Shown: positions 14,295-29,506 of the stretch, piece by piece
How the letters are laid out: each line of letters starts with the position of its first letter
Numbering within the stretch: the first letter of the stretch is position 1
Source of the DNA: a virus
Lineage: Duplodnaviria; Heunggongvirae; Uroviricota; Caudoviricetes
Virus record (IMG/VR): IMGVR_UViG_3300027770_000046
DNA length: 29,506 bases
Direction: 5' to 3' (one strand)
Made by a program: the position numbers and the translations under genes
The notes under the pieces: model-generated
Database searches by the model: none
Told to the model about the DNA's origin: nothing
What the model saw: only the letters and a program-made list of their open reading frames with translations

Positions 14295-16019
14295 ATGAAC
14301 GTTACTTGCTCTGCAACCCCATGTCCAGTTATATTGGATGCGACCTGCGTATTCTACGAAGGCCCCTTCCTTGTATACACTGGTATTAATACCAACGACA
14401 ATTTACAAACAGCATTAGAGAAGATTGATGCAGCTTTTGCATCAGCTGGCTATGGTACATCTGGTACATCTGGTACTAGTGGCTCCTCTGGAAGAAATGG
14501 AACTAATGGAGTTTCAGGAACTAATGGAATCAATGGTACTAAAGGTACATCAGGTACTTCAGGATCTTCTGGTACATCTGGAAGAACTGGAACTGCTGGT
14601 ACTTCTGGAAGGAATGGTACAGCTGGTACGTCAGGTAGTTCTGGGTCTAGTGGTAGAAATGGTACAGCTGGTACATCAGGTACATCAGGAACTGCTGGTT
14701 CTAATGGTACTAGTGGTAGTAGTGGATCTAGTGGTAGTAATGGTACCTCAGGTTCTTCTGGAACATCTGCTTCCTCTGGCTCTTCTGGTACATCTGGTAG
14801 TGCTGGTACAGATGGTAGTGCAGGAACTTCTGGTTCATCTGCCTCTAGTGGTACGTCAGGTTCTACAGGAACTTCTGGCAGTGCTGGTACATCAGGCTCA
14901 AGTGGTTCTGGTGGTGTTTCAGGTTCAGCTGGTACATCTGGATCTTCAGGTTTTACAGGTGATAGATATGCAACGTTCTCAGTACAAACATTTACATTAG
15001 GTAATGCTGGTACTTTACAAGTGACTCTTGGTTTAGCTTACACTGTTGGTCAAGCAATTATTATTGCTTATGATATTAACAACTATCAAGAGTGTAATGT
15101 AATTTCTTATAACAGTGCTACAGGTGCACTTAATTTTGATGCTCCTACAATAACAATAGGTGGTGGAACATATAGTTCATGGCAAATTAACTTGAATGGT
15201 GCCACAGGTGGTGCAGGTTCAAGTGGTACATCTGGTTCAAGTGGAACTAGTGGTACTACAGGTACTTCTGGAACTACAGGTACTTCAGGTACAACTGGTA
15301 CAGATGGCTCATCTGGTACAACAGGAACTGATGGTTCTTCTGGAACGTCAGGCTCTTCAGGTACAAGTGGCAGTTCTGGAACTGATGGATCTAGTGGAAC
15401 ATCAGGCTCTTCTGGAACATCTGGTTCTTCTGGAACTAGTGGTACAGATGGATCAAATGGTACGAGTGGTACAACAGGAACAAGTGGCACAGATGGATCT
15501 TCTGGTACATCAGGCTCTAGTGGCACTAGTGGAACAGATGGTTCAAGTGGAACAACAGGCACATCAGGTACTGATGGAAGCTCTGGAACAACTGGAACAA
15601 GTGGAACTGATGGTTCTTCAGGTACAGCAGGTACAAGTGGTATAGATGGTACAAGTGGTACAGATGGCTCTAGTGGTACTTCAGGAACTACAGGTACAGA
15701 TGGTTCTAGTGGTACAGCAGCAACATCAGGTATTTCTACATTGATGGCTGGTACAAGTGGTAGTACAATTACTATTCCTCCTGCTGAAGCTACAACAACA
15801 ACAACAACAACGACTGCACCTACTTATTATTATTATTTAGGAAGTCCTTGTGTAGGTGGAGCTAATGTAACTATTAGATCTACTACAACTCTAACTAATG
15901 GTGATGTAATATATCATAGTAATGGAAATTGTTGTACTATTTTCACTACTACTCTAGGACCTACTTATGATGCAGATTTTATATCACTTGAAACATGTTT
16001 TGTAGCTCCTTGCCCTTAA
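14295..16019 (+). CDS. Fibre protein A: Cys-containing N-terminal (putative virion anchor) domain, two Ser/Thr Gly-X-Y blocks around an intact beta-domain, then orphan first strand, Thr8 linker and small Cys-rich domain
   Basis: 574 aa. N-terminus TCSATPCPVILDATCVFYEGP...LQTALEKID. Gly-X-Y at 14454-14960 and 15198-15731. beta-domain at 14967-15200. Confidence 0.85.
   Translation: MNVTCSATPCPVILDATCVFYEGPFLVYTGINTNDNLQTALEKIDAAFASAGYGTSGTSGTSGSSGRNGTNGVSGTNGINGTKGTSGTSGSSGTSGRTGTAGTSGRNGTAGTSGSSGSSGRNGTAGTSGTSGTAGSNGTSGSSGSSGSNGTSGSSGTSASSGSSGTSGSAGTDGSAGTSGSSASSGTSGSTGTSGSAGTSGSSGSGGVSGSAGTSGSSGFTGDRYATFSVQTFTLGNAGTLQVTLGLAYTVGQAIIIAYDINNYQECNVISYNSATGALNFDAPTITIGGGTYSSWQINLNGATGGAGSSGTSGSSGTSGTTGTSGTTGTSGTTGTDGSSGTTGTDGSSGTSGSSGTSGSSGTDGSSGTSGSSGTSGSSGTSGTDGSNGTSGTTGTSGTDGSSGTSGSSGTSGTDGSSGTTGTSGTDGSSGTTGTSGTDGSSGTAGTSGIDGTSGTDGSSGTSGTTGTDGSSGTAATSGISTLMAGTSGSTITIPPAEATTTTTTTTAPTYYYYLGSPCVGGANVTIRSTTTLTNGDVIYHSNGNCCTIFTTTLGPTYDADFISLETCFVAPCP
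14454..14960 (+). repeat. Gly-X-Y block (GTS/GSS/GTA/GRN), Pro-free
   Basis: Triplet register in the translation; two Ala-for-Gly triplets (ASS). Confidence 0.95.
15198..15731 (+). repeat. Gly-X-Y block (GTS/GSS/GTT/GTD), Pro-free
   Basis: Triplet register in the translation; recurring GTD-GSS units. Confidence 0.95.
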
Positions 16020-16084
16020 AACAAACCAATTTACAGAGGTTCTTGTACCTCATGTTAAAATTAAAATATATAAAATAAATATAA

Positions 16085-18001
16085 ATGCCTTACGCTAATA
16101 TTACCATAACCATTGAAACTGGTAGATCATTCTATCCTGGACAATATGTCCAAGTGATACATGATGAGAACAACTATATCTTTGGTCAAGTGGTTACATA
16201 TGATCCTGTAACAGGAATCTTTGTTTTCTATCCTACCAATTACTTAGGTGCTGGTACATTTAATACATGGACTGTCGTAGCATCTGCTGTCTCAGGTTCT
16301 AGTGGAACAGCTGGAACAAGTGGATCATCTGGATCAACTGGTACTGATGGAAGTTCTGGAACAGATGGTTCTTCTGGAACCTCTGGTTCAACAGGAACAA
16401 GTGGTACAACAGGAACTGATGGAAGTAGTGGTACTGATGGTTCATCTGGCACTTCTGGTACTACAGGAACAGATGGTAGTTCTGGAACAAGTGGCACTAC
16501 AGGTACAGATGGTAGCTCAGGAACTGATGGTTCTAGTGGCACATCTGGATCTTCAGGTACAAGTGGAACTGATGGCTCAAGTGGAACCTCTGGAACAACT
16601 GGAACAGATGGTTCATCAGGTACATCAGGCACTGATGGAAGTTCTGGTACATCTGGAACTACAGGTACTGATGGAAGCTCAGGCACTAGTGGCACTGATG
16701 GATCTAGTGGAACAAGTGGAACTGATGGAAGTAGTGGCACAAGTGGAAGCTCAGGAACTGCAGCTACATCTGGTAACTCTGGTGACTTATATAAGACTAC
16801 ATCTACTACTAGTTTAAATATAGGAACAGGTACAAAAAATCTAACTGTAGATATATTATTAGCATATACAGTAGGACAGGCTATAGTTATTGCTTATGAT
16901 AATAGTAATACTATGGGTGGTAATCTTCTTTCTTACAATGCTGCTACAGGTGCAATGTCTGTTAATGTCACAGCTACCTCAGGTAGTGGTACTTATACTG
17001 CATGGCAAGTGAATTTAGGTGGTGCTGCAGGAGGTGATGGTACTTCAGGTACAAATGGTTCATCTGGAACGTCTGGAACTAATGGTACGTCTGGTACATC
17101 TGCGTCAAGTGGAACATCTGGAACAGATGGCTCTAGTGGTACTACAGGTACGTCAGGAACAGATGGGTCAAGTGGTACGTCTGCATCAAGTGGTAGTTCA
17201 GGAACTTCAGCTTCAGCTGGTACAAGTGGTAACCAAGGTGCTGATGGATTCTTAGCAGAGTGGTTATATAGTATAAATCCTGATACATCTGTAAACCCAG
17301 GTAGTACATTCTTTAGATTAGATATTAACTCTTGGAGTGAAACTGTAACAAATATTGCCATCAGTGACACTGCATACAATCCAAATGTAAACTTCTCTAC
17401 ATATTTAAACTTTATTGGACCAAACTCAATCATTAAGTTACAAAGCTCAAGTAATGTTGCAACTTTTAAGTTTTTAAGAATTGTAAGTAATACACCTTTT
17501 GTATCAGGCTATGAAGATTACACAGTGACACAACTTGCTAGTGGTGGTCCAGATCCTAGTGCTAGCGAAGCATTCTATTTCAACTTCATTGGTGTGAGTG
17601 GTACATCTGGTACCTCAGCATCAAGTGGAACTTCTGCAACATCAGGCACTACAGGAACTGATGGTTCTTCTGGTACAAGTGCAACGTCTGGTTCTAGTGC
17701 AAGTTCTGGAACATCTGCAACTAGTGGATCTTCAGGAACTTCTGGAACTGATGGATCAAGTGGTACTTCAGCTTCATCTGGAAGTAGTGGAACAAGTGGT
17801 TCTTCTGGAACTAGTGGAAGCTCAGGAACCTCTGCATCTAGTGGAAGCTCAGGAACTGATGGTAGCTCAGGTACAGCAGCTTCAAGTGGTACTTCAGCAA
17901 GTGCTGGTACAAGTGCTTCTTCTGGAACAGCAGCAACCTCTGGTGCATCATCAACATATAATGGAACTTCAGGAACAACACAAACCTTACCTTTAACATA
18001 A
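16085..18001 (+). CDS. Fibre protein B: N-terminal beta-domain lacking its first strand, three Ser/Thr Gly-X-Y blocks, one intact beta-domain, one ~115-aa globular domain, C-terminal orphan first strand
   Basis: 638 aa. N-terminal domain 16085-16294, internal homologous domain 16790-17020, second domain about 17249-17590, ends GTAATSGASSTYNGTSGTTQTLPLT. Confidence 0.85.
   Translation: MPYANITITIETGRSFYPGQYVQVIHDENNYIFGQVVTYDPVTGIFVFYPTNYLGAGTFNTWTVVASAVSGSSGTAGTSGSSGSTGTDGSSGTDGSSGTSGSTGTSGTTGTDGSSGTDGSSGTSGTTGTDGSSGTSGTTGTDGSSGTDGSSGTSGSSGTSGTDGSSGTSGTTGTDGSSGTSGTDGSSGTSGTTGTDGSSGTSGTDGSSGTSGTDGSSGTSGSSGTAATSGNSGDLYKTTSTTSLNIGTGTKNLTVDILLAYTVGQAIVIAYDNSNTMGGNLLSYNAATGAMSVNVTATSGSGTYTAWQVNLGGAAGGDGTSGTNGSSGTSGTNGTSGTSASSGTSGTDGSSGTTGTSGTDGSSGTSASSGSSGTSASAGTSGNQGADGFLAEWLYSINPDTSVNPGSTFFRLDINSWSETVTNIAISDTAYNPNVNFSTYLNFIGPNSIIKLQSSSNVATFKFLRIVSNTPFVSGYEDYTVTQLASGGPDPSASEAFYFNFIGVSGTSGTSASSGTSATSGTTGTDGSSGTSATSGSSASSGTSATSGSSGTSGTDGSSGTSASSGSSGTSGSSGTSGSSGTSASSGSSGTDGSSGTAASSGTSASAGTSASSGTAATSGASSTYNGTSGTTQTLPLT
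16295..16783 (+). repeat. Gly-X-Y block with GTD-GSS-GTS(-GTT) higher-order units
   Basis: Translation of ORF 16085; synonymous positions vary between units. Confidence 0.95.
17021..17248 (+). repeat. Gly-X-Y block with some Ala-for-Gly triplets
   Basis: Translation of ORF 16085. Confidence 0.9.
17591..17950 (+). repeat. Gly/Ala-X-Y block (many ASS/ATS/ASA triplets in the Gly register)
   Basis: Translation of ORF 16085. Confidence 0.9.
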
Positions 18002-18004
18002 GTT

Positions 18005-18928
18005 ATGCCATACGCAGATTTAACATTCCAAGTTCAGCCAGGTTTAAGATTTGTTGCAAATGATTTTGTGAACGTATATGTACCCACTACAACGACTACA
18101 ACAACAGTAGCTCCAACTACTACAACAACAACCACTGCAACTCCTACAACTACAACGACTACAACTCCTCCTCCTACAACTACTACCACAACAACAGCTG
18201 CAGGTGGTATTGTTACAAGTGGATTAATAGTTAATTTAGATGCAAGTAATCCTTCTTCTTATTCAGGCTCAGGTAATACATGGACTGACTTAACAGGTAA
18301 TGGATATAATGCAACAAGACAAGGTTCTGTACCATTTACTTCAGCAGGTCAACAATCTTATTTTGGTTTTAGTGGCTCAAGTTCTAATTACTTCTTGGGT
18401 AATAGTAATTTATATGGATTAAACTCTAATCAAATTAGTGGAACTGTTGGTATAACTGTTTCAATGATATTTAGACCATCAAACATTAGTACTAGAAGTA
18501 CTTTATGGTCAACTTATGCAAGTGATAAAGGAAGTGTTTTTGAAATTGGTACATTAGGTGCATTATGGACAAACACACTTAGACAATATTTAAGTGATAA
18601 TGGTCCTATTCGTAGCTCTGATAATAGAGGTGGTGCAAATACAATATCAAATTCAACAACTTACTTAATGACAGTTACTTGGGACCAAACAACTTATACA
18701 AGTACTATGTATGTAAATGGTAGTGCAATTGCACAAAGTAATGTTGGTTTTAATAAAAATAATATGACTTCAGCTTGGGCTAATTCAGCTAACTACAATT
18801 TAGGAGGAGACCCAACTCAAACAGGTACTTATGGAAATTTATATACAGCTTATATATATAATAGAGGATTAACAGCAGGAGAAGTATTACAAAACTATAA
18901 CGCATTACAATCAAGATTTGGACTATAA
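18005..18928 (+). CDS. Protein C: 27-aa beta-domain fragment, (P-T7-x-x)4 linker, concanavalin A-like/LamG lectin-type domain
   Basis: 307 aa. SGLIVNLDASNPSSYSGSGNTWTDLTGNGYNAT ... YNRGLTAGEVLQNYN...RFG is the LamG-like pattern common in aquatic phage structural proteins. Confidence 0.8.
   Translation: MPYADLTFQVQPGLRFVANDFVNVYVPTTTTTTTVAPTTTTTTTATPTTTTTTTPPPTTTTTTTAAGGIVTSGLIVNLDASNPSSYSGSGNTWTDLTGNGYNATRQGSVPFTSAGQQSYFGFSGSSSNYFLGNSNLYGLNSNQISGTVGITVSMIFRPSNISTRSTLWSTYASDKGSVFEIGTLGALWTNTLRQYLSDNGPIRSSDNRGGANTISNSTTYLMTVTWDQTTYTSTMYVNGSAIAQSNVGFNKNNMTSAWANSANYNLGGDPTQTGTYGNLYTAYIYNRGLTAGEVLQNYNALQSRFGL
18083..18202 (+). repeat. Four 10-aa units P-TTTTTTT-x-x (mucin-like linker)
   Basis: Codon count gives exactly seven Thr in each unit (18086-18106, 18116-18136, 18146-18166, 18176-18196). 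Confidence 0.95.
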
Positions 18929-18939
18929 AATAATTAATA

Positions 18940-19947
18940 ATGCCTAACCCATCAATATATGGAAGAGTTGTAAGTTATGACACTGTCACTGGTAGTCTAG
19001 TGGTAACACCACTTGAATACACAGGTGATCCAGGATCATACAGTACATGGACAGTTGAATTGGCTGGTAAGAATGGAACCTCTGGTGCATCTGCTAGTTC
19101 TGGAACTAGTGGTACTAGTGGTTCTTCAGCAAGCTCAGGTACACATGGTACGTCTGCAACTTCAGGTTCTTCTGGAACTTCAGGCTCAGCTGGTACGTCA
19201 GCAAGCTCAGGATCTTCAGGAACATCTGCTTCATCTGGTTCTTCAGGAACAAGTGCTGTTCAAGGTGGTACAGGTCCTCAGGGTGCCACTGGACCTCAGG
19301 GTCCAACAGGATTAGGTGGTTCTTCTGGTACATCTGGATCATCTGGTGGTCCAGGTCCTCAAGGTCCAACAGGAGGACAAGGCCCTCAGGGTCCTCAAGG
19401 TTTTGCAGGTGCTACAGGTCCAACAGGAGCCCCAGGACCACAAGGTCCAGTGGGTACTTCAGCTAGTTACTCTCAAGCTCCAAGTAATGGTTTGAATCAA
19501 GGAGATTATCCAAATCTTGGTACTACATCAAATGGTACTACATATGCATCAAGATTTTATCTTCCAGGTAATGTTTATAAAGGACTAAATGGTTCTTATG
19601 GACCTTGTTGGTTTGGATTTAACTTTGGATGGGCAAGTAATGCTGGATTAGGTGGTGCATATTTCTTTAACTCTTCTTCAAGAGGATTAAAAAAAGATAT
19701 TGAACCATTTACTAAAGATGCAACAGAAATCATAAAAAGTACAGAAATAATTACTTGGGAATTTGAAAGTGGAGAACATACAGAAGTTGAACATATTGGA
19801 TTCATAGCAGAAGATACTCCAGAAGAATTAGCCACTCCAGATCATAACGTAATGGATATTACTAATACTTTAGGAGTTGTATTAAAAGCAATTCAAGAAA
19901 TTGATAATAGAGTGACAGCTCTACAAAACAAAAATAACAATGGCTAA
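18940..19947 (+). CDS. Tip fibre D: C-terminal half of the beta-domain, Ser/Thr and collagen-like Gly-X-Y, short tip, peptidase S74 intramolecular chaperone
   Basis: 335 aa. Gly-X-Y at 19066-19461. SSRGLKKDI...HIGFIAED...VLKAIQEI from 19675. Confidence 0.88.
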
Positions 19948-21004
19948 CGCAACATTTAACTGTTCACCTAATTTAAGCTATGTAGCAGGAGACTTTGTGC
20001 AACTAAGCTATGATGCAAATAACTATGTTATTGGGACAGTGGTGTCATATAATGATATAACAGGTGTTATGGTAATCACTCCAGTTAAATCTGTAGGTAG
20101 TGGATCATATTCAATATGGAACGTTCAATTAACAGGGAATGCTGGTTCATCTGGAACAAATGGAACATCAGGTACTTCAGCATCTAGTGGAACAAGTGCT
20201 ACGTCTGGTAATGCTGGAAGTTCTGGTACAGCTGGAACATCTGGATCTGCAGGTTTAAGTAGATCAAGTGGAACAGCTGGTACATCTGGTTCTAGTGCCA
20301 CTGCAGGTACATCAGGTTCAGCAGGCACAACTGGTGCTATTGGACCAGTAGGTCCTCAAGGTGCACAAGGACCAATAGGTGCAACAGGTTCATCTGGTAC
20401 ATCAGGGGTTTCAGGAGTTAATGGTCCAACAGGTCCCACAGGAGCACAAGGTCCAACAGGAGCTACAGGCCCTACAGGTACAGCAACTCCAGGTCCTACA
20501 GGACCCACAGGTCCTACTGGAGCTCAAGGTCCACAAACAATATATAATCAATCTTTAAATACCACAGATAGTGTAAGTTTTGCTAACTTAGAAATGGGTT
20601 ATTGTCATGCAGTAGGTAACTTTCTTGTTCCTGATGGTGGTAAAGTAAGTAATAGTGCAGGTCAAGGTGCAAGTTGGTATGGTAATCAAGGAAGTTGGTT
20701 TTCGTATGGTTCTATTGGTTCTGCTTATTTCTTTGGTACTTCCACAAAAGAAGTTAAAAAGAATATAGAACCATTTACTAAATCAGGACTTGATTTAATA
20801 AAACAAACTGATATTGTAACATATAAATATGAGGGTGAACTACATTATACTGACTTAACAAAAATAGGATTTATTGCAGAAGAAACTCCTATTGAGATGT
20901 CTTCTTCAGACCAAGATGAAATGGTTATCAATTCTACAATTTGTGTAGCTATGAAAGCAATTCAAGAACTAGATGAGAAAATTAAAAACTTACAAAATAA
21001 ATAG
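19940..21004 (+). CDS. Tip fibre E: beta-domain lacking first strand, Ser/Thr and collagen-like Gly-X-Y, short tip, peptidase S74 chaperone
   Basis: 354 aa. Gly-X-Y at 20135-20536. STKEVKKNI...IGFIAEE...AMKAIQEL from 20741. Confidence 0.88.
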
Positions 21005-21006
21005 AT

Positions 21007-21369
21007 ATGACAATAAATGATATCAAATACACTTGGGAACTGTCTCATTTTCACGTAGTGCCTTCTAAAAATAACCAAGATAATGTAGTTACAAAAATAG
21101 CATTTACATTACATGGTGAATATATAGATGAGAATGGTACTTCTTTTAAAGAGTTTTGGACTGGAGCAACTCTTATAGAGATGGATGAAACCTCTACATT
21201 TACACCACTTGATCAAGTGACTAAAGAAATGGCTGAGAAGTGGGTGGAAGCTTCTGAAAATAAGAAGCAAAGAAATGTTGATTGGATTAAAAACAAAGTG
21301 TTAACAAGAATGCAAGAAAAAGTTACACCTACTATTGTTGTAATGACACCTCCTTTTGCACAAAAGTAA
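21007..21369 (+). CDS. Small fibre-associated phage protein (possible assembly factor)
   Basis: 120 aa. YTWEL...DNVVTKIAF...FTPLDQVTKEMAEKWV...PPF resembles small proteins I recall next to tail fibre genes in aquatic phages; function unknown. Confidence 0.55.
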   Translation: MTINDIKYTWELSHFHVVPSKNNQDNVVTKIAFTLHGEYIDENGTSFKEFWTGATLIEMDETSTFTPLDQVTKEMAEKWVEASENKKQRNVDWIKNKVLTRMQEKVTPTIVVMTPPFAQK

Positions 21370-21379
21370 TTAATAAACA

Positions 21380-22177
21380 ATGCCTTATTCAAACGTTACA
21401 TTTAATGTAAGTACAAACTTATCATTTAAACCAAATGATTTTGTACAATTAAATGGTACTCTTATTACTACTACCACTACTACCACTACAGCTGCACCTT
21501 TGCCTGTTATTACTACTGGATTAGTATTATATGTTGATGCTAGTATCCCTAGTAGCTATCCAGGTACAGGAACAACTTGGTACGATCTAAGCCCAAGTGG
21601 ATACAATGGTACATTAAGTGGCAGTACAGCTTATAGTTCTTTAAATGGAGGATATATTTCCACACAATCTAGTACAGGATATATTAATTTTCAACCTTCT
21701 TCAGCAGGAAGTAGCAGTAGTGCTTACACTTGGGGTGGTTGGTTTAATCTTCCAACTGCAGGTGCAACTAATATTCCTATGACAAGAGGAGGAGGAACTG
21801 ATAGTTATCCTAATGGATGGAATCTTGCTACTGTATTTTTATCTAACGCATTTAATGCTTCTATAGTAACTTCTGTACCTAGCATAGGTCAAATAAATGG
21901 TTCATATTCTTCAACTCCAAGTAGTAATACTTGGTATAATCATATAGCAGTATGGACTCCAGGTGTTAGTATAAAAGTATACTTAAATGGTGTTTTGAGA
22001 GCTACTCTAAATACTTCAACTACAATTTTAAGAACTTCTTCTCAAGGTTGGAATACTTCAATTGATGGTACAAAATACAATACTAATTATGGTTCAATGA
22101 TTGTTTACAATAGAGTATTAAGTGATGCTGAAGTTCTTCAAAACTTTAATTCAACTAAGACAAGATTTGGATACTAA
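21380..22177 (+). CDS. Protein F: ~26-aa beta-domain fragment, Thr8 linker, LamG-like domain (paralog of C)
   Basis: 265 aa. TGLVLYVDASIPSSYPGTGTTWYDL ... YNRVLSDAEVLQNFN...RFG. Thr8 at 21467-21490. Confidence 0.8.
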   Translation: MPYSNVTFNVSTNLSFKPNDFVQLNGTLITTTTTTTTAAPLPVITTGLVLYVDASIPSSYPGTGTTWYDLSPSGYNGTLSGSTAYSSLNGGYISTQSSTGYINFQPSSAGSSSSAYTWGGWFNLPTAGATNIPMTRGGGTDSYPNGWNLATVFLSNAFNASIVTSVPSIGQINGSYSSTPSSNTWYNHIAVWTPGVSIKVYLNGVLRATLNTSTTILRTSSQGWNTSIDGTKYNTNYGSMIVYNRVLSDAEVLQNFNSTKTRFGY

Positions 22178-22194
22178 AATAAATATAAAAAGTA

Positions 22195-23193
22195 ATGGCA
22201 TCTAATGATTATATTATAGGTAGAGTGGTATCATATAACCCTAGTACAGGTGATATGGTCGTAACTCCTTTAGAATCAAATGGTTCAGGAACATTTAACT
22301 CTTGGACTGTTGAATTAACAGGAGCATATGGAACATCAGGAACCTCTGGAACCTCTGGAACAAGTGGCTCTGCAGGAACTAGTGGTGCTTCAGTGTTATC
22401 TGCTGCTTCAGGTTCTGCAGGTACGTCAGCATCAAGTGGTACATCAGGTGTAGCTGCTACAAGTGGAAGCTCTGGCTTATCTGCTTCGAGTGGTAACTCT
22501 GGTCTTTCTGGTGCCAATGGAGCAACAGGACCACAAGGTCCAATAGGACCAACTGGTGCACAAGGACCTCAAGGAGCTAGAGGTTCATCAGGATCTAGTG
22601 GTGTAAATGGTCCAACAGGTCCACAAGGCCCTACTGGAGCAACAGGAGCAAGAGGTCCACAAGGAGCTAGTCCTACAGGTCCCCAAGGACCTACAGGTCC
22701 ACAAGGTCCTGCAAATAGCAATAACCAAACATTGAACTATGGAAGTCCTGCAACATTTGTAAATATTAGTGCTGGTTATCAAATATATTGTGACCAAGGG
22801 TTTTTTAATAATGGTGGAGTTCGAGGTCATGTAGTAAATGCTAATAATTTATATTTCTATAATAATAGTTCTAGTCAATGGTATAGTAATGGAGCAATTG
22901 GAGCAGGAGGGGGTAACTTCTTCCCAGCCTCTACTAGAGAGATTAAGAAAAATATTGAGCCATTTACTAAGTCTGCATTAGATATAATCAATAGTACAGA
23001 CATTGTGTCATTTGAATTTGAGATAACTGATCTTGAGGGTGAGACACATATAGGTTTTATAGCTGAAGACACTGCAGAAGAGCTAGCTACTAGCACTCAT
23101 GATCAAATGGTAGTACCTTCTAGCTTATCAATTTTGATGAAGGCTATACAAGAATTAGATAAAAAGTTACAGGTATTAGAAAATAATGCTTAA
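22195..23193 (+). CDS. Tip fibre G: C-terminal half of the beta-domain, Ser/Thr and collagen-like Gly-X-Y, short tip, peptidase S74 chaperone (paralog of D)
   Basis: 332 aa. Gly-X-Y at 22321-22713. STREIKKNI...HIGFIAED...LMKAIQEL from 22930. Confidence 0.88.
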
Positions 23194-23218
23194 CTTTGTT
23201 CTATCTAAAATTTAAATA

Positions 23219-23818
23219 ATGAATACCTCTATTGTTTTTCCAAAGCACACATGTGATCCACAAAATTATTATTTCTTTAATCCAGGGTTTTCTGCAGAAG
23301 AATTAGATATAGTTTATAAAGGAGTTGCAACAATTCCATTTCAACAAGCAATTACAGGTGAGAATAATGAAGAAAACCTAAGCGTGAGATCATCTTCTAT
23401 CAAATGGATTCCACCAAATGAACAATGGAGATGGCTTTATGAAAAGCTAATGAATATGATTATAGAAGCCAATAATGCAATTTGGCATTTTGATTTACAT
23501 AATTTAACAGACCATATTCAATATACAGAATACTATGCTGAGAAAGGTGGGCATTATAACTGGCATCAAGATATAGGTCCAGGAGAAATGTCTAAAAGAA
23601 AGATAAGCATAACAGTACAATTATCTGATCCTGATGAATATGAAGGTGGTGACTTAGAGTATTTTAAAGGAGGTAATCCAGAAGAAGCTGATAAAGCACC
23701 AAGAGGAAAAGGAGTTGTATTTATATTCCCTTCTTACATGATGCACAGAGTTACTAAATTAACTAAAGGAACTAGACGCTCTTTCGTACTATGGGTAGGA
23801 GGAGAACATTATAAATAG
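23219..23818 (+). CDS. 2OG-Fe(II) oxygenase (prolyl-hydroxylase/PKHD-like fold)
   Basis: WHQD (23561-23572), RKISITVQLS, YEGGDL, FPSYMMHRV, GTRRSFVLW: complete HxD...H...R set. Confidence 0.9.
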   Translation: MNTSIVFPKHTCDPQNYYFFNPGFSAEELDIVYKGVATIPFQQAITGENNEENLSVRSSSIKWIPPNEQWRWLYEKLMNMIIEANNAIWHFDLHNLTDHIQYTEYYAEKGGHYNWHQDIGPGEMSKRKISITVQLSDPDEYEGGDLEYFKGGNPEEADKAPRGKGVVFIFPSYMMHRVTKLTKGTRRSFVLWVGGEHYK

Positions 23819-23823
23819 TATTT

Positions 23824-24312
23824 ATGAAATTTCCTATTTCTAAGTTTAACTTAGGTAGACAATTTACAAAAGAAGAAAGAGAAGTATTTGTTAATTGTGT
23901 AAAAAATACAGGTGAAATTGAAGCTAATGTAGGTAATGCTAAATCTAAAAGCATGTCTATATTAGAGATACCTGAACTAGTTAATATTAAATCTTTTTGT
24001 TTAAGTTCTTTAAACAAACATGCCAACAATAGTGATCTTTACATCACAGAGTCTTGGTTAAATTTTACAATGCCAGGTGAGTGGCAACATTCTCAAAATC
24101 ATCCTAACAGTTTAATAAGTGGTATATTTTATATCAATACTCGTAAAGTATTGAACAATATTGTATTTTCAGAACTTGAAAAAATAATTAGTTTAGAAAG
24201 ATATGACTTATTATTATTTCCATCTCAGTTATTACATCATGCTCCAAAGAATATAGGTAATGATTTAAAGATAAGTTTATCTTTTAATACAGCAAAACCA
24301 ACAACTATATAA
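23824..24312 (+). CDS. TIGR02466-like putative 2OG-Fe(II) oxygenase, degenerate-looking copy
   Basis: SWLNFTMPGEWQHSQNHPNSLISGIFYI ... LFPSQLLHH ... KISLSFN; clear paralog of 25845-26474. Confidence 0.75.
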   Translation: MKFPISKFNLGRQFTKEEREVFVNCVKNTGEIEANVGNAKSKSMSILEIPELVNIKSFCLSSLNKHANNSDLYITESWLNFTMPGEWQHSQNHPNSLISGIFYINTRKVLNNIVFSELEKIISLERYDLLLFPSQLLHHAPKNIGNDLKISLSFNTAKPTTI

Positions 24313-25124
24313 TGCAGCAGATATTTTATAATAGTAGTTTACCTAGATCAGGAAGTACATTGTTACAAAATGTATTCAATCAAAACCCTGATATGTATGC
24401 CACTCCTACAAGTGGTGTTGTACAATTCTTAGAGCTTATAAGAATGACTTTTTCTCAAGCAGAATTTAAAGCACAGGATACCAAAGTTATGGAGAAGGCT
24501 GCTTTGTCTTTTTGTAGAGAAGGTATGAAAGGGTTTGCTAGTTCAATATCAGACAAGCCTTACTTTATAGATAAAAGCTTTTATTGGGGAATGCACTTTA
24601 ATTATTTAAAATTAATCAATGATGAAGACCCTAAGATTATAATTATGATTAGAGATTTGAGAGATATATTTGCATCCTTTGAATCTAATCATAGAAAAAA
24701 CACTTTGGTTTATAATGAAAATGTTAATTGGGATAGTCTTGAATGTACTACAATGGAGAAAAGAATACTAGATTGGACTAGGAAAAAACCAGTGGGACCT
24801 GTTATAGATGCCTTAAGAGATATCATTAATTACAGGTTAGATTCTAAAATCTTGTTTATAAAATATGAGGAGTTCTGTGAAGACCCTAATAAAGAAATGA
24901 TTAAGATATATAACTACTTAGAGCTGCCATACTTCCAACATAACTTTAACAATGTAGAACAAACTACAAAAGAGAATGATGTATTCTATTTCACTAGACA
25001 CGATATTAGAAGTGTTGTAAAGAAAAAGGAATCAGAAGCTGAACATATTATAGGTAAGCCTGCTTGTGATTGGGTATATAAAAACTATGAGTGGTTCTTT
25101 AAGTTCTTTAAATATAATAAATAG
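24312..25124 (+). CDS. Sulfotransferase family protein
   Basis: SSLPRSGSTLL (5'-PSB loop), IIMIRDLRDIFAS (3'-PB motif), IKYEEFCEDP. Confidence 0.85.
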   Translation: MQQIFYNSSLPRSGSTLLQNVFNQNPDMYATPTSGVVQFLELIRMTFSQAEFKAQDTKVMEKAALSFCREGMKGFASSISDKPYFIDKSFYWGMHFNYLKLINDEDPKIIIMIRDLRDIFASFESNHRKNTLVYNENVNWDSLECTTMEKRILDWTRKKPVGPVIDALRDIINYRLDSKILFIKYEEFCEDPNKEMIKIYNYLELPYFQHNFNNVEQTTKENDVFYFTRHDIRSVVKKKESEAEHIIGKPACDWVYKNYEWFFKFFKYNK

Positions 25125-25125
25125 A

Positions 25126-25494
25126 TTATATTTTCCTAATTGGTCTGGCAAAAGATGGAACTTTCTTGTCTAATATATATTGATTACCAGTAAAGAAATA
25201 TTGATAATGAGCATTTTCTTTATCATATTCATCACGAGTCCAATAGCCATATAATGGCAACATTTTTAGATATTCTTTTTTCTTATACATTAAATAAAGT
25301 TGCTCTTTATTAGGTAACATCCAACCATCTCCCATTTTTTTACAAAATTCCATAGCAAAATCCCAACTCATAAGTCCAGTTTTATGTGATTCTACCAATT
25401 TAGAAGAAGAATTATAAAGATTATAATACCCTAATAATTCATTAGGAAATACTTCGTATTTTACTTCATTATCAATAATTATTAATTTTTCCAT
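25126..25494 (-). CDS. DUF1566/Lcl-C-like (C-type lectin fold) protein
   Basis: MSWDFAMEFCKKMGDGWMLPNKEQL...YWT...ARPIR matches the W-x2-A-x3-C...W-x-LP-x3-[EQ]L...YW pattern. Confidence 0.7.
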   Translation of the reverse strand: MEKLIIIDNEVKYEVFPNELLGYYNLYNSSSKLVESHKTGLMSWDFAMEFCKKMGDGWMLPNKEQLYLMYKKKEYLKMLPLYGYWTRDEYDKENAHYQYFFTGNQYILDKKVPSFARPIRKI

Positions 25495-25506
25495 AATATA
25501 ATAATA

Positions 25507-25845
25507 TTATTGTAATTTTCTTATTGGTCTAGCAAAAGATGGCATTCTTTTTTCAAATACATACTGAACACCAGTAAAGAAATATTGATAGTATGCAGAA
25601 TATGCATCATATTCATCACAGCTCCAATAACCATGTAGTGGTAAGATACCAAGGTATTCTTTTTTCCTGTACATTAAATCTAGTTCCTCTTTAGTAGGTA
25701 ACGTCCAACCCTCTCCTAATCTTTTACAAGATTCCATAGCATAATACCAAGTCATAAGTCCTTCAACTGTACCATTACCATATCCTAAATCATAAGGATA
25801 TACTTCATACTTTATATTGTTATCTACAATTATTAGTTTTTGCAT
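25507..25845 (-). CDS. DUF1566/Lcl-C-like protein, tandem paralog
   Basis: MTWYYAMESCKRLGEGWTLPTKEEL...YWS...ARPIR; 55 of the last 83 aligned residues match the neighbour by hand count. Confidence 0.7.
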   Translation of the reverse strand: MQKLIIVDNNIKYEVYPYDLGYGNGTVEGLMTWYYAMESCKRLGEGWTLPTKEELDLMYRKKEYLGILPLHGYWSCDEYDAYSAYYQYFFTGVQYVFEKRMPSFARPIRKLQ

Positions 25846-26474
25846 TAGAATATGTTATTGATTTCTAAGTAATTCACTCCATCATTCTGAATACCAAACT
25901 TACCTTCAAAGAAAGAGTTGAAAGCTAAACTAATTCTAGGAGTTTTACTTTTAGTTTCAGGAACTCCATGAAACATATTAGATGGGAATAACACCATAAA
26001 TCCAGTTCCTACTTGAAGATTAAATAAATGTGAATTATATCCATTAGTATCTTTAACATCAAATTGCCATGGTCTCACTTCTTTAGTATTTGTAAAAGAA
26101 ATATTATCACAATCTTTGTCTGCATTAATATATATTACACCACTAATAATACTGTTAGGATGATAATGTTGATGATGATTTTCTCCTGGTTCAGTTACAT
26201 TTGTCCATGATTGCGTAAGTTTTAATCTAATCTCATTTGGTCTTGCTGGTGAATAAATCTCATCAAAATATTGATCTAAAGCATTTTGTGCAAACTTTTT
26301 AAGATCTTTCATAGCAGGATCTTCTAGCACTCTATGATTATAAGAACCTTCATTACCAACACTAAATCCTAGCTCTTGACTATTTACACAGTCTAGTTCT
26401 TCTTTTGTAAAATCTCTTCCAAGTTCAAACGTCATTAATGGAGTGGCAAATATTCTAAGTGTATCTAATTTCAT
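25845..26474 (-). CDS. TIGR02466-like putative 2OG-Fe(II) oxygenase
   Basis: SWTNVTEPGENHHQHYHPNSIISGVIYI ... LFPSNMFHGV ... RISLAFN. Confidence 0.85.
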   Translation of the reverse strand: MKLDTLRIFATPLMTFELGRDFTKEELDCVNSQELGFSVGNEGSYNHRVLEDPAMKDLKKFAQNALDQYFDEIYSPARPNEIRLKLTQSWTNVTEPGENHHQHYHPNSIISGVIYINADKDCDNISFTNTKEVRPWQFDVKDTNGYNSHLFNLQVGTGFMVLFPSNMFHGVPETKSKTPRISLAFNSFFEGKFGIQNDGVNYLEINNIF

Positions 26475-27535
26475 AAGTTTTCTTTTATTGTGTTTAATAC
26501 TGTTTCCATACTGATAGATTTATGACATTCAAAATGTCTAGGAGTATCCTCATGCTCAGGACACCAATTCCAATCTCCTTTATTAAACTTAAACACAGGG
26601 TTATTCCAACAGCCATTACATACATCTTTATTAACTATTCGTATACAGTTAGATTGAAACTCATGGTCTGGTGTAGTGAAGTTAGAGATCATCACTGTCT
26701 TCTTACCTATACCCCAGTTTAACCAACTGATACCACTAGAAAGACCAACAAATATATCTGCATGATGCAGATAGTTCATAGCTACATTAAGAGACTTATC
26801 TTCTAGCTTCTCTGCTCCTAAGTCATCTGCCTCCTGTGATAGTTCTATCACCCTATACCCCATATCTTTTAAGGCCTGAATTAACTCTGGCCAGTAGTAC
26901 CAATGCTTACATTGTGCTGTAGATCTAGTAGATATACAGATGTATTTACTATCTATTGGTCTTTCAGATGGTGTGAAGGCTATCCTAGGTTGTATCTCTT
27001 CAAATTCTAAAGCTAATACATTACTAGCTGCTTGTTGTAATGGTATAGTTGCAGGATGTGTAGGCTCTTTATCTTTCTCCCAGAACCAGCCAAGCTCCAC
27101 TTGAGCCACTATATTATGTACTACCACTCCTCTTTCTACAAACTCTAGCTCAGGATATACAGATTCAAATAGTTCATTCTTGAAAGAAGATACTAACACA
27201 TGGCACTTATACTTCTCTTGAAAGGCTAGACAGTATGGCATCCAAGCTATACTATCTCCAAGGCTCTTAGACTCAAAGACAATAAATACCCTAGCACCTC
27301 TTAGCTCATCTAATAGATTAATCTGTAATAATGTACGTCCTTGGTATTTAATGAATATAGCTATGTTAGATAGATACTTTCTATTAAGCTTAGACCATCC
27401 ACCTTTCTTCATTTTAGTTTCATAGATAGTTGTATTACCATCTACAAAGCTTACATCATATTCTCTACCTTTTCCTTCATCATCTAATAGTTCAAAGTGC
27501 AAACCATTGATGTGTAATAATTTATATTTTATCAT
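26471..27535 (-). CDS. TibC/Aah-like (autotransporter O-heptosyltransferase family, GT-B fold) glycosyltransferase
   Basis: SLGDSIAW, TAQCKHW, FVGLSSGISWLNWGIGKKTVMISNFT, and the four-Cys set VCNGCWN...WCP...FEC that matches the iron site of TibC. Confidence 0.8.
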   Translation of the reverse strand: MIKYKLLHINGLHFELLDDEGKGREYDVSFVDGNTTIYETKMKKGGWSKLNRKYLSNIAIFIKYQGRTLLQINLLDELRGARVFIVFESKSLGDSIAWMPYCLAFQEKYKCHVLVSSFKNELFESVYPELEFVERGVVVHNIVAQVELGWFWEKDKEPTHPATIPLQQAASNVLALEFEEIQPRIAFTPSERPIDSKYICISTRSTAQCKHWYYWPELIQALKDMGYRVIELSQEADDLGAEKLEDKSLNVAMNYLHHADIFVGLSSGISWLNWGIGKKTVMISNFTTPDHEFQSNCIRIVNKDVCNGCWNNPVFKFNKGDWNWCPEHEDTPRHFECHKSISMETVLNTIKENL

Positions 27536-28113
27536 TTTTCTGTGTCAAAAAAGAAGGTTTGAAATAATCTGCCATCATTTAAATCTTTTCCAAAATAGTC
27601 TAAAGATACATGGAATAAATCACCTCTATATAAGATAAGTCTATTATAAACATTACCCACCTTATCTATCATATCCCATTTAGTATAATCATAATAATCT
27701 GTACTATATAAAGGTACTTTATCATTTTCTTCTTTTGTATGATGAGCAAATACATAACCATTTAATCCAGTAGCTTTATGTCTAAACAATCCTGTACCTG
27801 CAGATAGAGGAGCATCAGGAGTTAAATAGATAACACCTGCCCACATTGTTGTTCCATCAGTATGAATCCAAGATCTATCAACTGCTGTGGTATATTGAAA
27901 GCTTCCTGAGATAGTTCCCCAGTTGGTAACATTTCCTGCAAAAGGTTTTATTATATCTTGTATAATTTCTTTTGTGCTATCATTTAAGAAAGGTTGTGTT
28001 CTTTTGCCAGGGTAATGATGTGGTTCTTCAAAATATTCTTGTCCCATAGCAAACTGTCTTACTTCATCTACATTGCTGTAAAAATCAGCAACAGAAATCA
28101 TTTCTACTCTCAT
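27532..28113 (-). CDS. DUF6445-like 2OG-Fe(II) oxygenase-fold protein
   Basis: DFYSNVDEVRQFA...YPGKRT...WIHTD...AGVIYLTP...GTGLF...YNRLILY...FH...GRLFQTFF: HxD...H...R present. Confidence 0.75.
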   Translation of the reverse strand: MRVEMISVADFYSNVDEVRQFAMGQEYFEEPHHYPGKRTQPFLNDSTKEIIQDIIKPFAGNVTNWGTISGSFQYTTAVDRSWIHTDGTTMWAGVIYLTPDAPLSAGTGLFRHKATGLNGYVFAHHTKEENDKVPLYSTDYYDYTKWDMIDKVGNVYNRLILYRGDLFHVSLDYFGKDLNDGRLFQTFFFDTEK

Positions 28114-29123
28114 AGTGTATTGTATTTGTTTATATATAATTGTTGTGTTCTTTCAGATGTATAGCCTTCATTAATCTTTAATACATTAATGTAAAACTTC
28201 TCAAGAGTCTTAGCTACATGGAACCAATCTCTACTATCACGTGCAGCTAACACTTCATTCTTTCTATGGTCATAAGTTTTAATAACTTCTGACACACCTT
28301 TAATAACAGCATCTGTACTGATATTTGGTAAGACCCACATACCATCCATATGTCTAGACCCTCTATAAGTTCCCACAATAGGTATTCCACAAGCTGTTGC
28401 TTCCATTAATGTTAGGTTAGGATGTCCTGCTTCTAACATAGATGGATGTAAGAAGATAGTATGAGACTGATATAACTCTCTAGTCTCTTCATCTGTAGGG
28501 TTTGTTAACTTTAAAGTTAACTTTTTATATTGTAATAGCTCTGAATGGATATCAAAGAACTTTTGGTTATCAGGATGTCCAGCTATAGTGATAGGTAAGT
28601 CTAATTCTTCTGCTGCCTGAATACCATATCTAAATCCTTTTCTATCAAAACCTGAATCACCTGCTAATCCATTATTAGCTATCATTAATAAAGAGTGTTC
28701 TTTAGGAGTATAATCAGGAGTAAAGAATGCAGTATCAGCACCATGTGGTAGATAGAATAACTTATCAGTCTCACTAAAGTATTCAATCAAATACTCAGCA
28801 TGGGTGAAGGATATAATGCTATGCTTCATAGCCTCTAGGTTTTGCTTATACACCCAGCTATCTTTACCATACCATTCTGTATGATGATCATGTAGAGAGT
28901 ATACATAAGGTATACCTTTATCTCTACAATATAAAGCTTGATTAGCTAGGTGAGCATGTACAATTGTATCAGGCCATTTCTCTAGCTCATTCATATATTT
29001 AACTTCTACATTATGACCTAACTTACTTAGTCTATCTTTGTAGGCCCAGATAAGTCTTTCTACAGCACCCCATCCATTTGGTGGTATTGTAATTAGTCCT
29101 GTAGCTACGTGTACTATTCTCAT
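28110..29123 (-). CDS. GT4-like (GT-B) glycosyltransferase
   Basis: PPNGWGAVERLIW, RKGFRYGIQAA, FLHPSMLEAGHPNLTLMEATACGIPIV. Confidence 0.85.
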   Translation of the reverse strand: MRIVHVATGLITIPPNGWGAVERLIWAYKDRLSKLGHNVEVKYMNELEKWPDTIVHAHLANQALYCRDKGIPYVYSLHDHHTEWYGKDSWVYKQNLEAMKHSIISFTHAEYLIEYFSETDKLFYLPHGADTAFFTPDYTPKEHSLLMIANNGLAGDSGFDRKGFRYGIQAAEELDLPITIAGHPDNQKFFDIHSELLQYKKLTLKLTNPTDEETRELYQSHTIFLHPSMLEAGHPNLTLMEATACGIPIVGTYRGSRHMDGMWVLPNISTDAVIKGVSEVIKTYDHRKNEVLAARDSRDWFHVAKTLEKFYINVLKINEGYTSERTQQLYINKYNTL

Positions 29124-29506
29124 TTTCTAAATGTTTTTTGCATATTGTCTATTAAAGAAAAACCATCTGCTTGTGTGGTAAGTCTCTTCTTAACTATACC
29201 CATTTGTGGCCCTGCAAAGATATTATTAAAATACATATCAGAAGCATCCCACTTGTGTTTTCTCAAAGTATTTTTTAAATAATCTGCTACAGATATAGGG
29301 AACATAATAGATTGTAAACCTATGATGTGATCTGTAACATACATGTCATCATTGATATCTTTAATCATAGGGCTTTGAGGCCAGCCATATTCTAATGTAT
29401 CCTTGTCTCCAAAGGACATATAGTTGATACCATTTGGTCCCATTAAGTGTGCACATTGCTCAACTTTTCGTACGAAAAAGTGTATGTCTGTCTCAATAAT
29501 ACAGTC
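29120..29506 (-). CDS. C-terminal part of a GT-A (GT25-like) glycosyltransferase domain; 5'-truncated by the window
   Basis: The frame stays open past the listed ATG at 29443 to the window end, reading DCIIETDIHFFVRKVEQCAHL-MGPNG. CIIETD resembles the GT25 acidic motif and LTTQADGFSLID the GT25 C-terminal motif. Confidence 0.55.
   Translation of the reverse strand, partial: DCIIETDIHFFVRKVEQCAHLMGPNGINYMSFGDKDTLEYGWPQSPMIKDINDDMYVTDHIIGLQSIMFPISVADYLKNTLRKHKWDASDMYFNNIFAGPQMGIVKKRLTTQADGFSLIDNMQKTFRK

What the first reader, a model, noticed from the sequence alone, without database searches (positions are those of the whole stretch)
26471..27535. Phage TibC/Aah-like O-glycosyltransferase beside Ser/Thr-saturated fibres: candidate fibre glycosylation system
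Seen: LGD, KxW and four-Cys (CNGC...C...C) motifs in this ORF; hundreds of Ser/Thr in Gly-X-Y blocks, Gly-Pro-Thr collagen and poly-Thr arms within 3-12 kb. Established: TibC/Aah are iron-containing enzymes that add heptose to many Ser residues of repetitive autotransporter adhesins; Bacillus BclA and Riftia cuticle collagen use glycosylated Thr in Gly-X-Thr repeats; some mycobacteriophages glycosylate their virions. Inference: the enzyme hyperglycosylates the fibres, with GT4 and GT-A extending the chains, to stiffen a Pro-poor helix, shield it from proteases or mimic host glycans. The sugar donor need not be ADP-heptose.
Basis: partly seen in the sequence, partly recalled or inferred. Interest (0 to 1): 0.8.

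Follow-up and report, generated by a model that had tools for sequence, protein, structure and literature searches.

The report
Phage TibC-like enzyme for Ser/Thr fibres
An uncultured freshwater crAss-like phage carries a true but stripped-down relative of TibC, the enzyme E. coli uses to sugar-coat an adhesin; comparison with relatives shows the gene comes and goes with the phage's Gly-Ser/Thr-Ser/Thr collagen-like fibres, so it most likely sugar-coats them, though no sugar has been observed.

Summary
ORF 26471-27535(-) scores 251 bits on NCBIfam TIGR04414 (Aah/TibC; cut-off 200). Its model superposes on TibC (TM 0.81-0.85) and poorly on LPS heptosyltransferases (TM 0.37-0.53).

It keeps the catalytic Asp, the phosphate-binding Thr/Lys, the sugar-binding Trp and the four iron-finger Cys. 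It lacks the beta-hairpin thumb that builds TibC's dodecamer. The adenine-contacting Arg-286 is Ala.

On a family tree the thumbed enzymes form one clade. Their neighbours are large autotransporter-like proteins. The window's enzyme lies among thumbless relatives, whose neighbours in phages and in bacterial chromosomes carry (G-S/T-S/T)n tracts.

Among 39 related phage records, all 24 with the enzyme have such tracts and 13 have neither. The two exceptions are fragments. The two traits switch together in 6 of 6 independent supported pairs. A GT4 is the constant partner and is fused to the enzyme in some phages.

Fibre glycosylation is therefore well supported by comparison but not shown. The sugar is unknown, and the closest relatives carry no heptose-pathway genes. 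Earlier notes of this scan reached the same reading on other DNA. I found no paper describing it.

The parts
26471..27535 (-). Thumbless TibC/Aah-like GT9 protein O-glycosyltransferase (354 aa). It has an N-terminal beta-barrel, a GT-B catalytic domain and a Cys4 iron-finger. Key residues are D94, T206, K210, W271, C306, C309, C325 and C337.
   Evidence: TIGR04414 251 bits. TibC 4rap E 3.6e-43. AF2 pLDDT 94. Foldseek TM 0.81-0.85 to TibC. Residue mapping.
27532..28113 (-). DUF6445 protein (193 aa), joined to both neighbours by 4-bp overlaps. It is present in only part of the related modules.
   Evidence: PF20043 E 7.7e-13. phrog_1644. Distribution.
28110..29123 (-). GT4 glycosyltransferase (337 aa), the constant partner of the TibC-like gene and fused to it in some phages.
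   Evidence: PF00534/PF13692. Adjacent in nearly all 45 loci. Fusions of about 700 aa and larger.
29120..29506 (-). C-terminal 128 codons of a multidomain protein of about 890 aa, cut by the window end. It has a GT4-type domain near its N-terminus, and its tail gives a weak GT25 hint.
   Evidence: Homologues of 870-901 aa in relatives. PF00534 at residues 164-277. GT25 E 0.0099, below cut-off.
25845..26474 (-). 2OG-Fe(II) oxygenase (209 aa) overlapping the TibC-like stop codon; a possible tailoring enzyme.
   Evidence: PF13759 E 1.5e-23, TIGR02466, phrog_81.
25126..25845 (-). Two small proteins (112 and 122 aa) with sub-threshold matches to the C-terminal domain of the Legionella collagen-like adhesin Lcl (DUF1566). 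They end the minus-strand operon.
   Evidence: PF07603 at 24.5-25.2 bits against a cut-off of 34.9. Absent from most relatives.
14295..18001 (+). Fibre proteins A (574 aa) and B (638 aa). They hold long, nearly Pro-free G-S/T-S/T collagen-like blocks and are the main candidate acceptors.
   Evidence: Pfam Collagen E 1.6e-46 and 6.1e-38. 239 and 268 Ser+Thr, 75 and 76 G[ST][ST] triplets.
18940..21004 (+). Fibre proteins D (335 aa) and E (354 aa). Each has a Ser/Thr block, then Pro-containing collagen, a tip and an S74 intramolecular chaperone.
   Evidence: PF01391 and PF13884. Composition.
22195..23193 (+). Fibre protein G (332 aa), with the same layout as D and E.
   Evidence: PF01391 and PF13884.
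18005..18928 (+). Poly-Thr arm plus lectin-like protein C (307 aa), a possible extra acceptor.
   Evidence: T7 runs. phrog_24074.
21380..22177 (+). Poly-Thr arm plus LamG lectin-like protein F (265 aa), a possible extra acceptor.
   Evidence: PF13385 E 8.1e-07. T8 run.
23219..25124 (+). Two 2OG-Fe(II) oxygenases (one of the prolyl-hydroxylase-type family PF13640) and a sulfotransferase at the end of the fibre operon; possible further tailoring enzymes.
   Evidence: PF13640 E 7.2e-14, PF13759 E 1.2e-12, PF00685 E 1.6e-17.

Best explanation
The ORF encodes a cytoplasmic protein O-glycosyltransferase of the TibC/Aah superfamily. It has a GT9 GT-B core, an N-terminal beta-barrel and a Cys4 iron-finger. 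It belongs to a thumbless group that lies outside the classical autotransporter heptosyltransferase clade. I propose that during late infection it puts the first sugar on Ser/Thr side chains of the phage's own (Gly-Ser/Thr-Ser/Thr)n fibre proteins, with Asp94 as catalytic base and Thr206/Lys210 holding the donor's beta-phosphate. The adjacent GT4 and the upstream multidomain transferase of about 890 aa would then extend the glycan, and the neighbouring oxygenases and sulfotransferase may tailor it. Because the thumb is missing, the enzyme probably works as a monomer or a back-to-back dimer on an extended repeat chain, not as a dodecameric ring around a beta-helix. Shown here: family membership, residue conservation, thumb deletion, the conserved GT4 partnership, and co-inheritance with G-S/T-S/T proteins. 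Inferred: that the fibres are the acceptor, the order of action, the oligomeric state, and the sugar. ADP-heptose from the host is possible but not established.
For: Family and fold.

Catalytic and metal residues are conserved in 265-269 of 269 relatives.

The GT4 is adjacent in nearly all 45 viral loci and fused to the enzyme in several lineages, including cultured Microcystis phage Mel-JY01.

In 39 whole records of the same phage lineage, TIGR04414 is present in 24 and the (G-[ST]-[ST])x4 pattern in 26. All 24 enzyme-positive records carry the pattern. 13 have neither, six of them at least 93% complete. The two pattern-only records are 43%-complete fragments that end just past the fibre.

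On the tree of a neighbouring gene both traits change 9 times, and 6 of 6 supported independent pairs change the same way.

A further 13 of 16 enzyme-bearing viral records have the pattern, once 16 kb away from the enzyme; the three without are fragments.

In bacteria, thumbless relatives sit 74-172 bp from small lipoproteins whose only shared feature with the fibres is a G-S/T-S repeat tract. Thumbed relatives sit beside autotransporter-like giants and never beside such tracts. The counts are 35 GST / 0 AT for thumbless rows against 0 GST / 24 AT for thumbed rows.
Against: No glycan has been observed on any such fibre.

The enzyme and fibre genes are physically linked (1-16 kb). Cassette exchange could move both together without a functional tie.

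The link between thumb and partner type rests on a single branch of the family tree, so it counts as one evolutionary event.

In TibC, thumb mutants and R286A are inactive on TibA (PMC4358343). A thumbless, Arg-less enzyme must therefore work differently, or conceivably not at all.

The donor is unknown, and no gmhA or rfaE-type gene was found in five close relatives.

RNA-library contigs were too short and too divergent to show expression.
Confidence: 0.66

Rival explanations
1. Linkage without function. The glycosyltransferase operon and the fibre genes share one hypervariable host-range island and are swapped together. The enzymes would modify something else, such as host envelope glycans for superinfection exclusion, or phage DNA.
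For: The genes lie within 1-16 kb of each other in every record examined. Near-identical backbones differ by the whole block, for example L055 against L061. The literature usually assigns phage glycosyltransferases to DNA or O-antigen modification. 2OG oxygenases sit nearby.
Against: The pairing survives changes of gene order, strand, spacing and fusion state. It also holds across unrelated phages (Mel-JY01). It recurs in bacterial chromosomes, where the partner is a small lipoprotein sharing only the G-S/T-S tract. The family is a protein O-glycosyltransferase family. The oxygenases here are not of the TET/JBP type.
Confidence: 0.14
2. The enzyme does glycosylate virion proteins, but its acceptors are the poly-Thr arms of the lectin-like proteins (or other Ser/Thr linkers) rather than the Gly-X-Y blocks.
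For: Runs of seven or eight Thr occur in three window proteins and in several relatives. From general knowledge, poly-Thr and Ser linkers are classical O-glycosylation sites.
Against: Many enzyme-bearing relatives show no poly-Thr run in the flanks, yet all have G-S/T-S/T tracts (L004, L028, L029, L039 and L047). The bacterial partners have G-S-S tracts and no poly-Thr.
Confidence: 0.08
3. The phage enzyme targets a host protein, for instance a G-S/T-S repeat lipoprotein or adhesin, to remodel the infected cell surface.
For: Bacterial thumbless relatives are paired with exported G-S-S repeat lipoproteins.
Against: Presence of the enzyme tracks phage-encoded repeat fibres exactly, 24 of 24 against 0 of 13. 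The host is unknown, so nothing supports a host target.
Confidence: 0.05
4. The protein is a catalytically dead or purely structural relic, given the loss of the thumb and of Arg-286.
For: The equivalent TibC mutants lose activity on TibA.
Against: Asp, Lys, Trp and the four Cys are invariant or nearly so across 269 relatives. More than 1000 homologues keep the full length. The model has pLDDT 94. R286 is absent from most of the wider family.
Confidence: 0.03

Closest known systems
TibC-TibA and Aah-AIDA-I of E. coli: bacterial autotransporter heptosyltransferases (BAHT; TIGR04414; PDB 4RAP and 4RB4; PMC4358343)
   Same: Same superfamily and fold: N-terminal beta-barrel, GT9 GT-B core and Cys4 iron-finger. 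The catalytic Asp-110, Thr-226/Lys-230 and Trp-305 equivalents are kept. It is a cytoplasmic enzyme encoded next to a highly repetitive Ser/Thr-rich surface protein that would be modified at many sites.
   Different: Arg-286, the adenine N1 contact, is Ala. The enzyme lies outside the 100%-supported clade of thumbed enzymes. The partner is a collagen-like (G-S/T-S/T)n phage fibre, not a beta-helical autotransporter. A GT4 is an obligatory partner, so the glycan is probably an oligosaccharide. The donor is unknown.
LPS heptosyltransferases WaaC/WaaF/WaaQ (GT9)
   Same: Same CAZy-type fold family; Pfam PF01075 matches weakly at 25.9 bits.
   Different: NCBIfam HepI scores 17 bits against a cut-off of 185. 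Foldseek TM is 0.37-0.53. These enzymes have no beta-barrel and no iron-finger, and their acceptor is a lipid-linked core oligosaccharide.
Mycobacteriophage virion glycosylation (Freeman et al. 2023, Cell Host Microbe 31:1216; seen only as a reference, details from my own knowledge)
   Same: Phage-encoded glycosyltransferases decorate the phage's own structural proteins.
   Different: It uses different enzyme families and different targets (capsid and tail-tube C-terminal extensions) in an Actinobacteria host, and it has been shown experimentally. The present system is inferred only.
Glycosylated collagen-like proteins: Bacillus anthracis BclA, Riftia cuticle collagen, mimivirus collagen modified by L230 (my own knowledge; not tested here)
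   Same: Thr, Ser or hydroxylysine in Gly-X-Y repeats carry sugars that stabilise or shield a Pro-poor triple helix.
   Different: Unrelated transferases. None is of the TibC type, and none has been described for tailed phages.

Membership tests
BAHT / TIGR04414 (Aah-TibC O-heptosyltransferases) | Profile score above the curated equivalog cut-off | tested here: met
   251.4 bits against a cut-off of 200, E 1.4e-74, covering residues 27-352.
BAHT / TIGR04414 | Fold: N-terminal beta-barrel plus GT-B catalytic domain | tested here: met
   AF2 model with pLDDT 94 and strands over residues 3-73. Foldseek aligns 374-381 columns to TibC with TM 0.81-0.85.
BAHT / TIGR04414 | Catalytic base Asp-110 and donor contacts Thr-226, Lys-230 and Trp-305 | tested here: met
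   D94, T206, K210 and W271 align to them. D and W are invariant in 269 of 269 relatives and K is in 267.
BAHT / TIGR04414 | Arg-286, which contacts adenine N1 (ADP specificity) | tested here: not met
   It is Ala252 here. Among 269 relatives Arg occurs in only 30; V, T and A dominate.
BAHT / TIGR04414 | Four-Cys iron-finger (Cys-339/342/358/370) | tested here: met
   C306, C309, C325 and C337 align, and each is kept in 265-266 of 269 relatives. Iron binding itself cannot be tested here.
BAHT / TIGR04414 | Beta-hairpin thumb with Phe-265/Val-266, required for the dodecamer and for activity on TibA | tested here: not met
   A 10-residue deletion falls exactly there. The segment is 8 residues here against 18 in Aah. 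The model has no hairpin between residues 232 and 248.
BAHT / TIGR04414 | Ring-shaped dodecamer | not testable with these tools
   Absence is inferred from the thumb deletion only.
BAHT / TIGR04414 | Adjacent autotransporter adhesin as substrate | tested here: not met
   There is no autotransporter-like neighbour in the window or in any of 53 thumbless or short-thumb rows. It was found in 24 of 44 thumbed rows; the other 20 gave no call.
BAHT / TIGR04414 | Membership of the clade that contains Aah | tested here: not met
   The thumbed enzymes, including Aah, are one side of a branch with 100% SH-aLRT support. This holds when the thumb columns are removed. The window's enzyme is on the other side.
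BAHT / TIGR04414 | ADP-heptose as donor | not testable with these tools
   No gmhA or rfaE-domain-II-type gene in five close relatives, three of them complete. A second generic GT9 sits in the relatives' operon.
LPS heptosyltransferases (WaaC/WaaF, GT9) | Profile score and fold of the LPS enzymes | tested here: not met
   TIGR02193 scores 17 bits against a cut-off of 185. Foldseek gives TM 0.37-0.53 and E about 1e-7.
Thumbless TibC-like enzymes paired with (G-S/T-S/T)n proteins (group proposed here) | Short thumb segment together with a G-[ST]-[ST] repeat protein encoded nearby | tested here: met
   The segment is 8 residues and 21 pattern hits lie within 3.3-12 kb. 35 of 53 such rows have a repeat partner and none has an autotransporter-like one.

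The most novel reading that the evidence does not exclude
A widespread and so far undescribed kind of virion glycosylation in aquatic tailed phages. A thumbless, non-dodecameric branch of the TibC superfamily recognises the bare (Gly-Ser/Thr-Ser/Thr)n chain. With a GT4 partner it coats Pro-free collagen-like fibres in oligosaccharide, possibly from a donor other than ADP-heptose. The sugars would replace hydroxyproline as the stabiliser of the triple helix. The same enzyme-repeat pair would also operate on bacterial lipoproteins.
Probability: 0.45. Interest if true: 0.8.

Novelty: new variant of a known kind. Interest (0 to 1): 0.66.

Why it matters
As far as I know, virion glycosylation by phage-encoded enzymes has been shown experimentally only for mycobacteriophages. 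If this reading is right, a large group of freshwater and other aquatic phages sugar-coat their receptor-binding fibres. The family holds more than 1000 homologues, and this phage's DNA recurs in lake, river and drinking-water metagenomes from at least 11 studies.

That would bear on host recognition, on resistance of the fibres to proteases, and on how a collagen helix without proline holds together.

It also redefines the TibC family. The autotransporter-specific, dodecameric enzymes would be one specialised clade within a broader family whose other members pair with Gly-Ser/Thr repeat proteins.

There is a practical point for annotation too. The NCBIfam equivalog name 'autotransporter strand-loop-strand O-heptosyltransferase' is being applied to phage proteins that have no autotransporter and may not use heptose.

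Tried and rejected
LPS heptosyltransferase reading: rejected on profile scores and fold.

Near relatives in INPHARED: none found at DNA level. Only four records hold a protein homologue. The 1430-aa protein gave no hit, and the giant protein gave no PDB hit.

PDB sequence searches of the 900-aa transferase and of the DUF6445 protein were uninformative.

Heptose-pathway search (PF01467, TIGR00441) in five close relatives found nothing above threshold. Mel-JY01's 'cytidylyltransferase-like' protein did not resolve as an rfaE type.

Expression: two metatranscriptome runs hold only short contigs that are 90-95% alike, from relatives, and DNA carry-over cannot be excluded. I make no claim of transcription.

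Literature: searches for phage TibC/heptosyltransferase, virion glycosylation and collagen-like fibre glycosylation found no description of this system. The Freeman 2023 paper is not held.

Not done: a reverse survey of all viral contigs carrying G-S/T-S/T repeats. The collection scan needs at least 14 specified bases, and a pattern that meets this would probably select only long perfect runs.

No whole genome is held for the window.

Full report
**What is there.** The ORF at 26471-27535 (minus strand, 354 aa) is the fourth gene of a minus-strand operon whose genes overlap by four bases. The order is: the tail of a protein of about 890 aa cut by the window end (29120-29506), GT4 (28110-29123), DUF6445 (27532-28113), the ORF itself, a 2OG-Fe(II) oxygenase (25845-26474), and two small proteins with weak Lcl C-domain matches (25126-25845). 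This operon converges on a plus-strand fibre operon spanning 14295-25124. That operon encodes five collagen-like proteins, three of them with the S74 chaperone domain. It also encodes two poly-Thr/lectin-like proteins, a DUF7936 protein, two more 2OG oxygenases and a sulfotransferase. The seven fibre proteins hold 935 Ser+Thr and 196 G-[ST]-[ST] triplets.

**Origin.** The replicon is an uncultured phage. Relatives in IMG/VR are 100-120 kb, and several have terminal repeats. The DNA recurs in lake, river and drinking-water metagenomes. An independent run reproduces 14000-29357 without a difference.

**The enzyme.** It scores 251.4 bits on TIGR04414 (Aah/TibC; cut-off 200) against 17 bits on LPS heptosyltransferase I. 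It aligns to TibC (4RAP) at E 3.6e-43. An AlphaFold model (pLDDT 94, pTM 0.91) superposes on TibC with TM 0.81-0.85. It superposes on WaaC/WaaF with only TM 0.37-0.53.

I took the functional residues from the TibC structure paper (PMC4358343) and mapped them onto the ORF.
- Kept: the catalytic base Asp-110 (D94), the beta-phosphate ligands Thr-226/Lys-230 (T206/K210), Trp-305 (W271), and the four iron-finger cysteines (C306, C309, C325, C337).
- Changed: Arg-286, which contacts adenine N1, is Ala252.
- Changed: Pro-300, which sets heptose stereoselectivity in TibC, is Ser.
- Missing: the ten residues that form the tip of the beta-hairpin thumb (Phe-265/Val-266).

Across 269 relatives Asp, Lys, Trp and the cysteines are invariant or nearly so. 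Arg-286 occurs in only 30. The thumb segment is short (8-10 residues) in 206. The protein is therefore a real member of the TibC superfamily, but it fails two of the features that define the characterised enzymes.

**Two kinds of TibC-like enzyme.** I scanned bacterial genomes and combined the hits with the viral loci and Aah.
- Rows with an 18-residue thumb (44, including Aah, nearly all with Arg-286) form one side of a branch with 100% SH-aLRT support. This also holds with the thumb columns removed. Their neighbours are large Ser/Thr/Gly-rich autotransporter-like proteins in 24 cases and never G-[ST]-[ST] repeat proteins.
- Rows with a short or absent thumb (53, including the window) have G-[ST]-[ST] repeat neighbours in 35 cases and never an autotransporter-like one.

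In Gammaproteobacterial contigs, one of them a 5.18-Mb Arenicellales chromosome, the partner lies 74-172 bp away. It is a 130-210-aa lipoprotein with a lipobox, a G-S-S tract and an acidic tail. Its only feature in common with the phage fibres is the repeat tract. This split is a single evolutionary event, so it defines two groups and is not a statistical correlation.

**Does the enzyme go with the fibres?** In the 45 viral loci found with the enzyme, GT4 is adjacent almost everywhere. It is fused to the enzyme in several lineages, including the 1227-aa protein of cultured Microcystis phage Mel-JY01. Collagen-like Ser/Thr-rich ORFs lie within 0.6-11 kb wherever the flank is long enough. This holds in different orders and orientations.

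As a control I fetched 78 loci of the same phage lineage through a different gene, the 1430-aa protein. I then searched the 39 records that had enough flank, over their whole length.
- TIGR04414 is present in 24 records.
- A (G-[ST]-[ST])x4 DNA pattern is present in 26, with zero hits for the reversed control pattern.
- All 24 enzyme-bearing records have the pattern.
- 13 records have neither, and six of these are at least 93% complete.
- The two pattern-only records are 43%-complete fragments that end just beyond the fibre.

On the tree of the 1430-aa protein each trait needs nine changes. In the six supported independent pairs that differ in the fibre pattern, the enzyme differs the same way every time (sign test p = 0.031, the minimum reachable with six pairs).

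Sixteen further enzyme-bearing records gave 13 with the pattern. In one of them the pattern is 16 kb from the enzyme. The three without the pattern are fragments.

**Limits.** The genes are neighbours, so exchange of a cassette can move both at once, and no glycan has been seen. The donor is unknown. The closest relatives, three of them complete, carry no gmhA or rfaE-type gene, and the adenine contact is lost. On the other hand, relatives have a second, generic GT9 at the head of the operon, beyond the window end. All characterised GT9 enzymes use ADP-heptose (my own knowledge). Metatranscriptome contigs were too short and too divergent to show expression.

**Comparison and novelty.** The system works like TibC-TibA or Aah-AIDA-I: a cytoplasmic enzyme modifies many Ser/Thr of a repetitive surface protein encoded beside it. 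It differs in substrate class, in the probable oligomeric state, in having an obligatory GT4 partner, and in its place on the family tree. Full-text searches found no paper describing a phage TibC-like enzyme or glycosylated Gly-Ser/Thr fibres. Phage glycosyltransferases are usually ascribed to DNA or O-antigen modification. Earlier notes of this scan reached the same reading on other genomes. I treated them as leads and tested the pairing independently in this phage's own lineage.

I rate the finding a new variant of a known kind. Confidence that the gene is a TibC-superfamily glycosyltransferase is about 0.97. Confidence that the fibres' repeat tracts are its acceptors is about 0.66.

Noticed in passing
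window 23219-25124: Directly after the last fibre gene come a prolyl-hydroxylase-type 2OG oxygenase (PF13640), a second 2OG oxygenase (PF13759) and a sulfotransferase (PF00685). Fibres D, E and G contain Gly-Pro-X collagen stretches, so prolyl hydroxylation or sulfation of the fibres or their glycans is conceivable.
   Followed up: partly
L047:4747-8430 (Microcystis phage Mel-JY01, PP395634.1): The protein deposited as 'methyltransferase FkbM' is a 1227-aa fusion that contains a GT4 domain and a complete TibC-like domain (TibC_1st plus GT9). It lies 1.0-1.7 kb (by two ORF sets) from an 805-aa open frame with 447 residues of Gly-X-Y, more than half of them Ser/Thr; that frame is not an annotated gene in the record, whose annotated CDS there is on the other strand. 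As a cultured phage it would be a practical system for testing fibre glycosylation.
   Followed up: partly
L136:11151-12565, L138:11184-11804, L139:11213-11839, L135:8563-8991, L205:7824-8989: In Gammaproteobacterial genomes, thumbless TibC-like genes sit beside small lipoproteins with a lipobox, a long G-S-S or G-T-S tract and a poly-Asp/Glu tail. This looks like an undescribed bacterial enzyme-substrate pair.
   Followed up: partly
L001:4818-8416 and L002:4736-8400 (beyond the window's right end): In the closest relatives the operon starts with a second, generic GT9 (312-320 aa; best NCBIfam hits are LPS heptosyltransferases, far below cut-off). It is followed by the 893-901-aa protein whose tail is the window's last ORF. 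Other relatives insert a methyltransferase and a GT2 there.
   Followed up: partly
L127 and L130 (MAGs labelled 'uncultured Bacteroides sp.'): These contigs carry the same 900-aa transferase, TibC-like gene and G-S/T-S/T fibres as the phage. They look like phage contigs binned into Bacteroidota MAGs. That is a weak hint at the host phylum, consistent with the crAss-like affiliation.
   Followed up: no
window 7-9414: The 3135-aa protein matches no Pfam, PHROG or PDB sequence. It gives only a weak tblastn hit (22.5% identity, E 1e-13) to crAss-like phage cr108_1.
   Followed up: partly
window 25126-25845: Two small paralogous proteins give sub-threshold matches to the C-terminal domain of the Legionella collagen-like adhesin Lcl (DUF1566). 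They sit at the end of the glycosyltransferase operon and are absent from most relatives, where a second 2OG oxygenase takes their place.
   Followed up: no
L055 versus L061: Two phages with almost identical 1430-aa proteins differ by the whole block: one has G-S/T-S/T fibres plus the TibC-like gene, the other a short Pro-rich collagen and no enzyme. This suggests recent cassette replacement at the fibre locus.
   Followed up: partly
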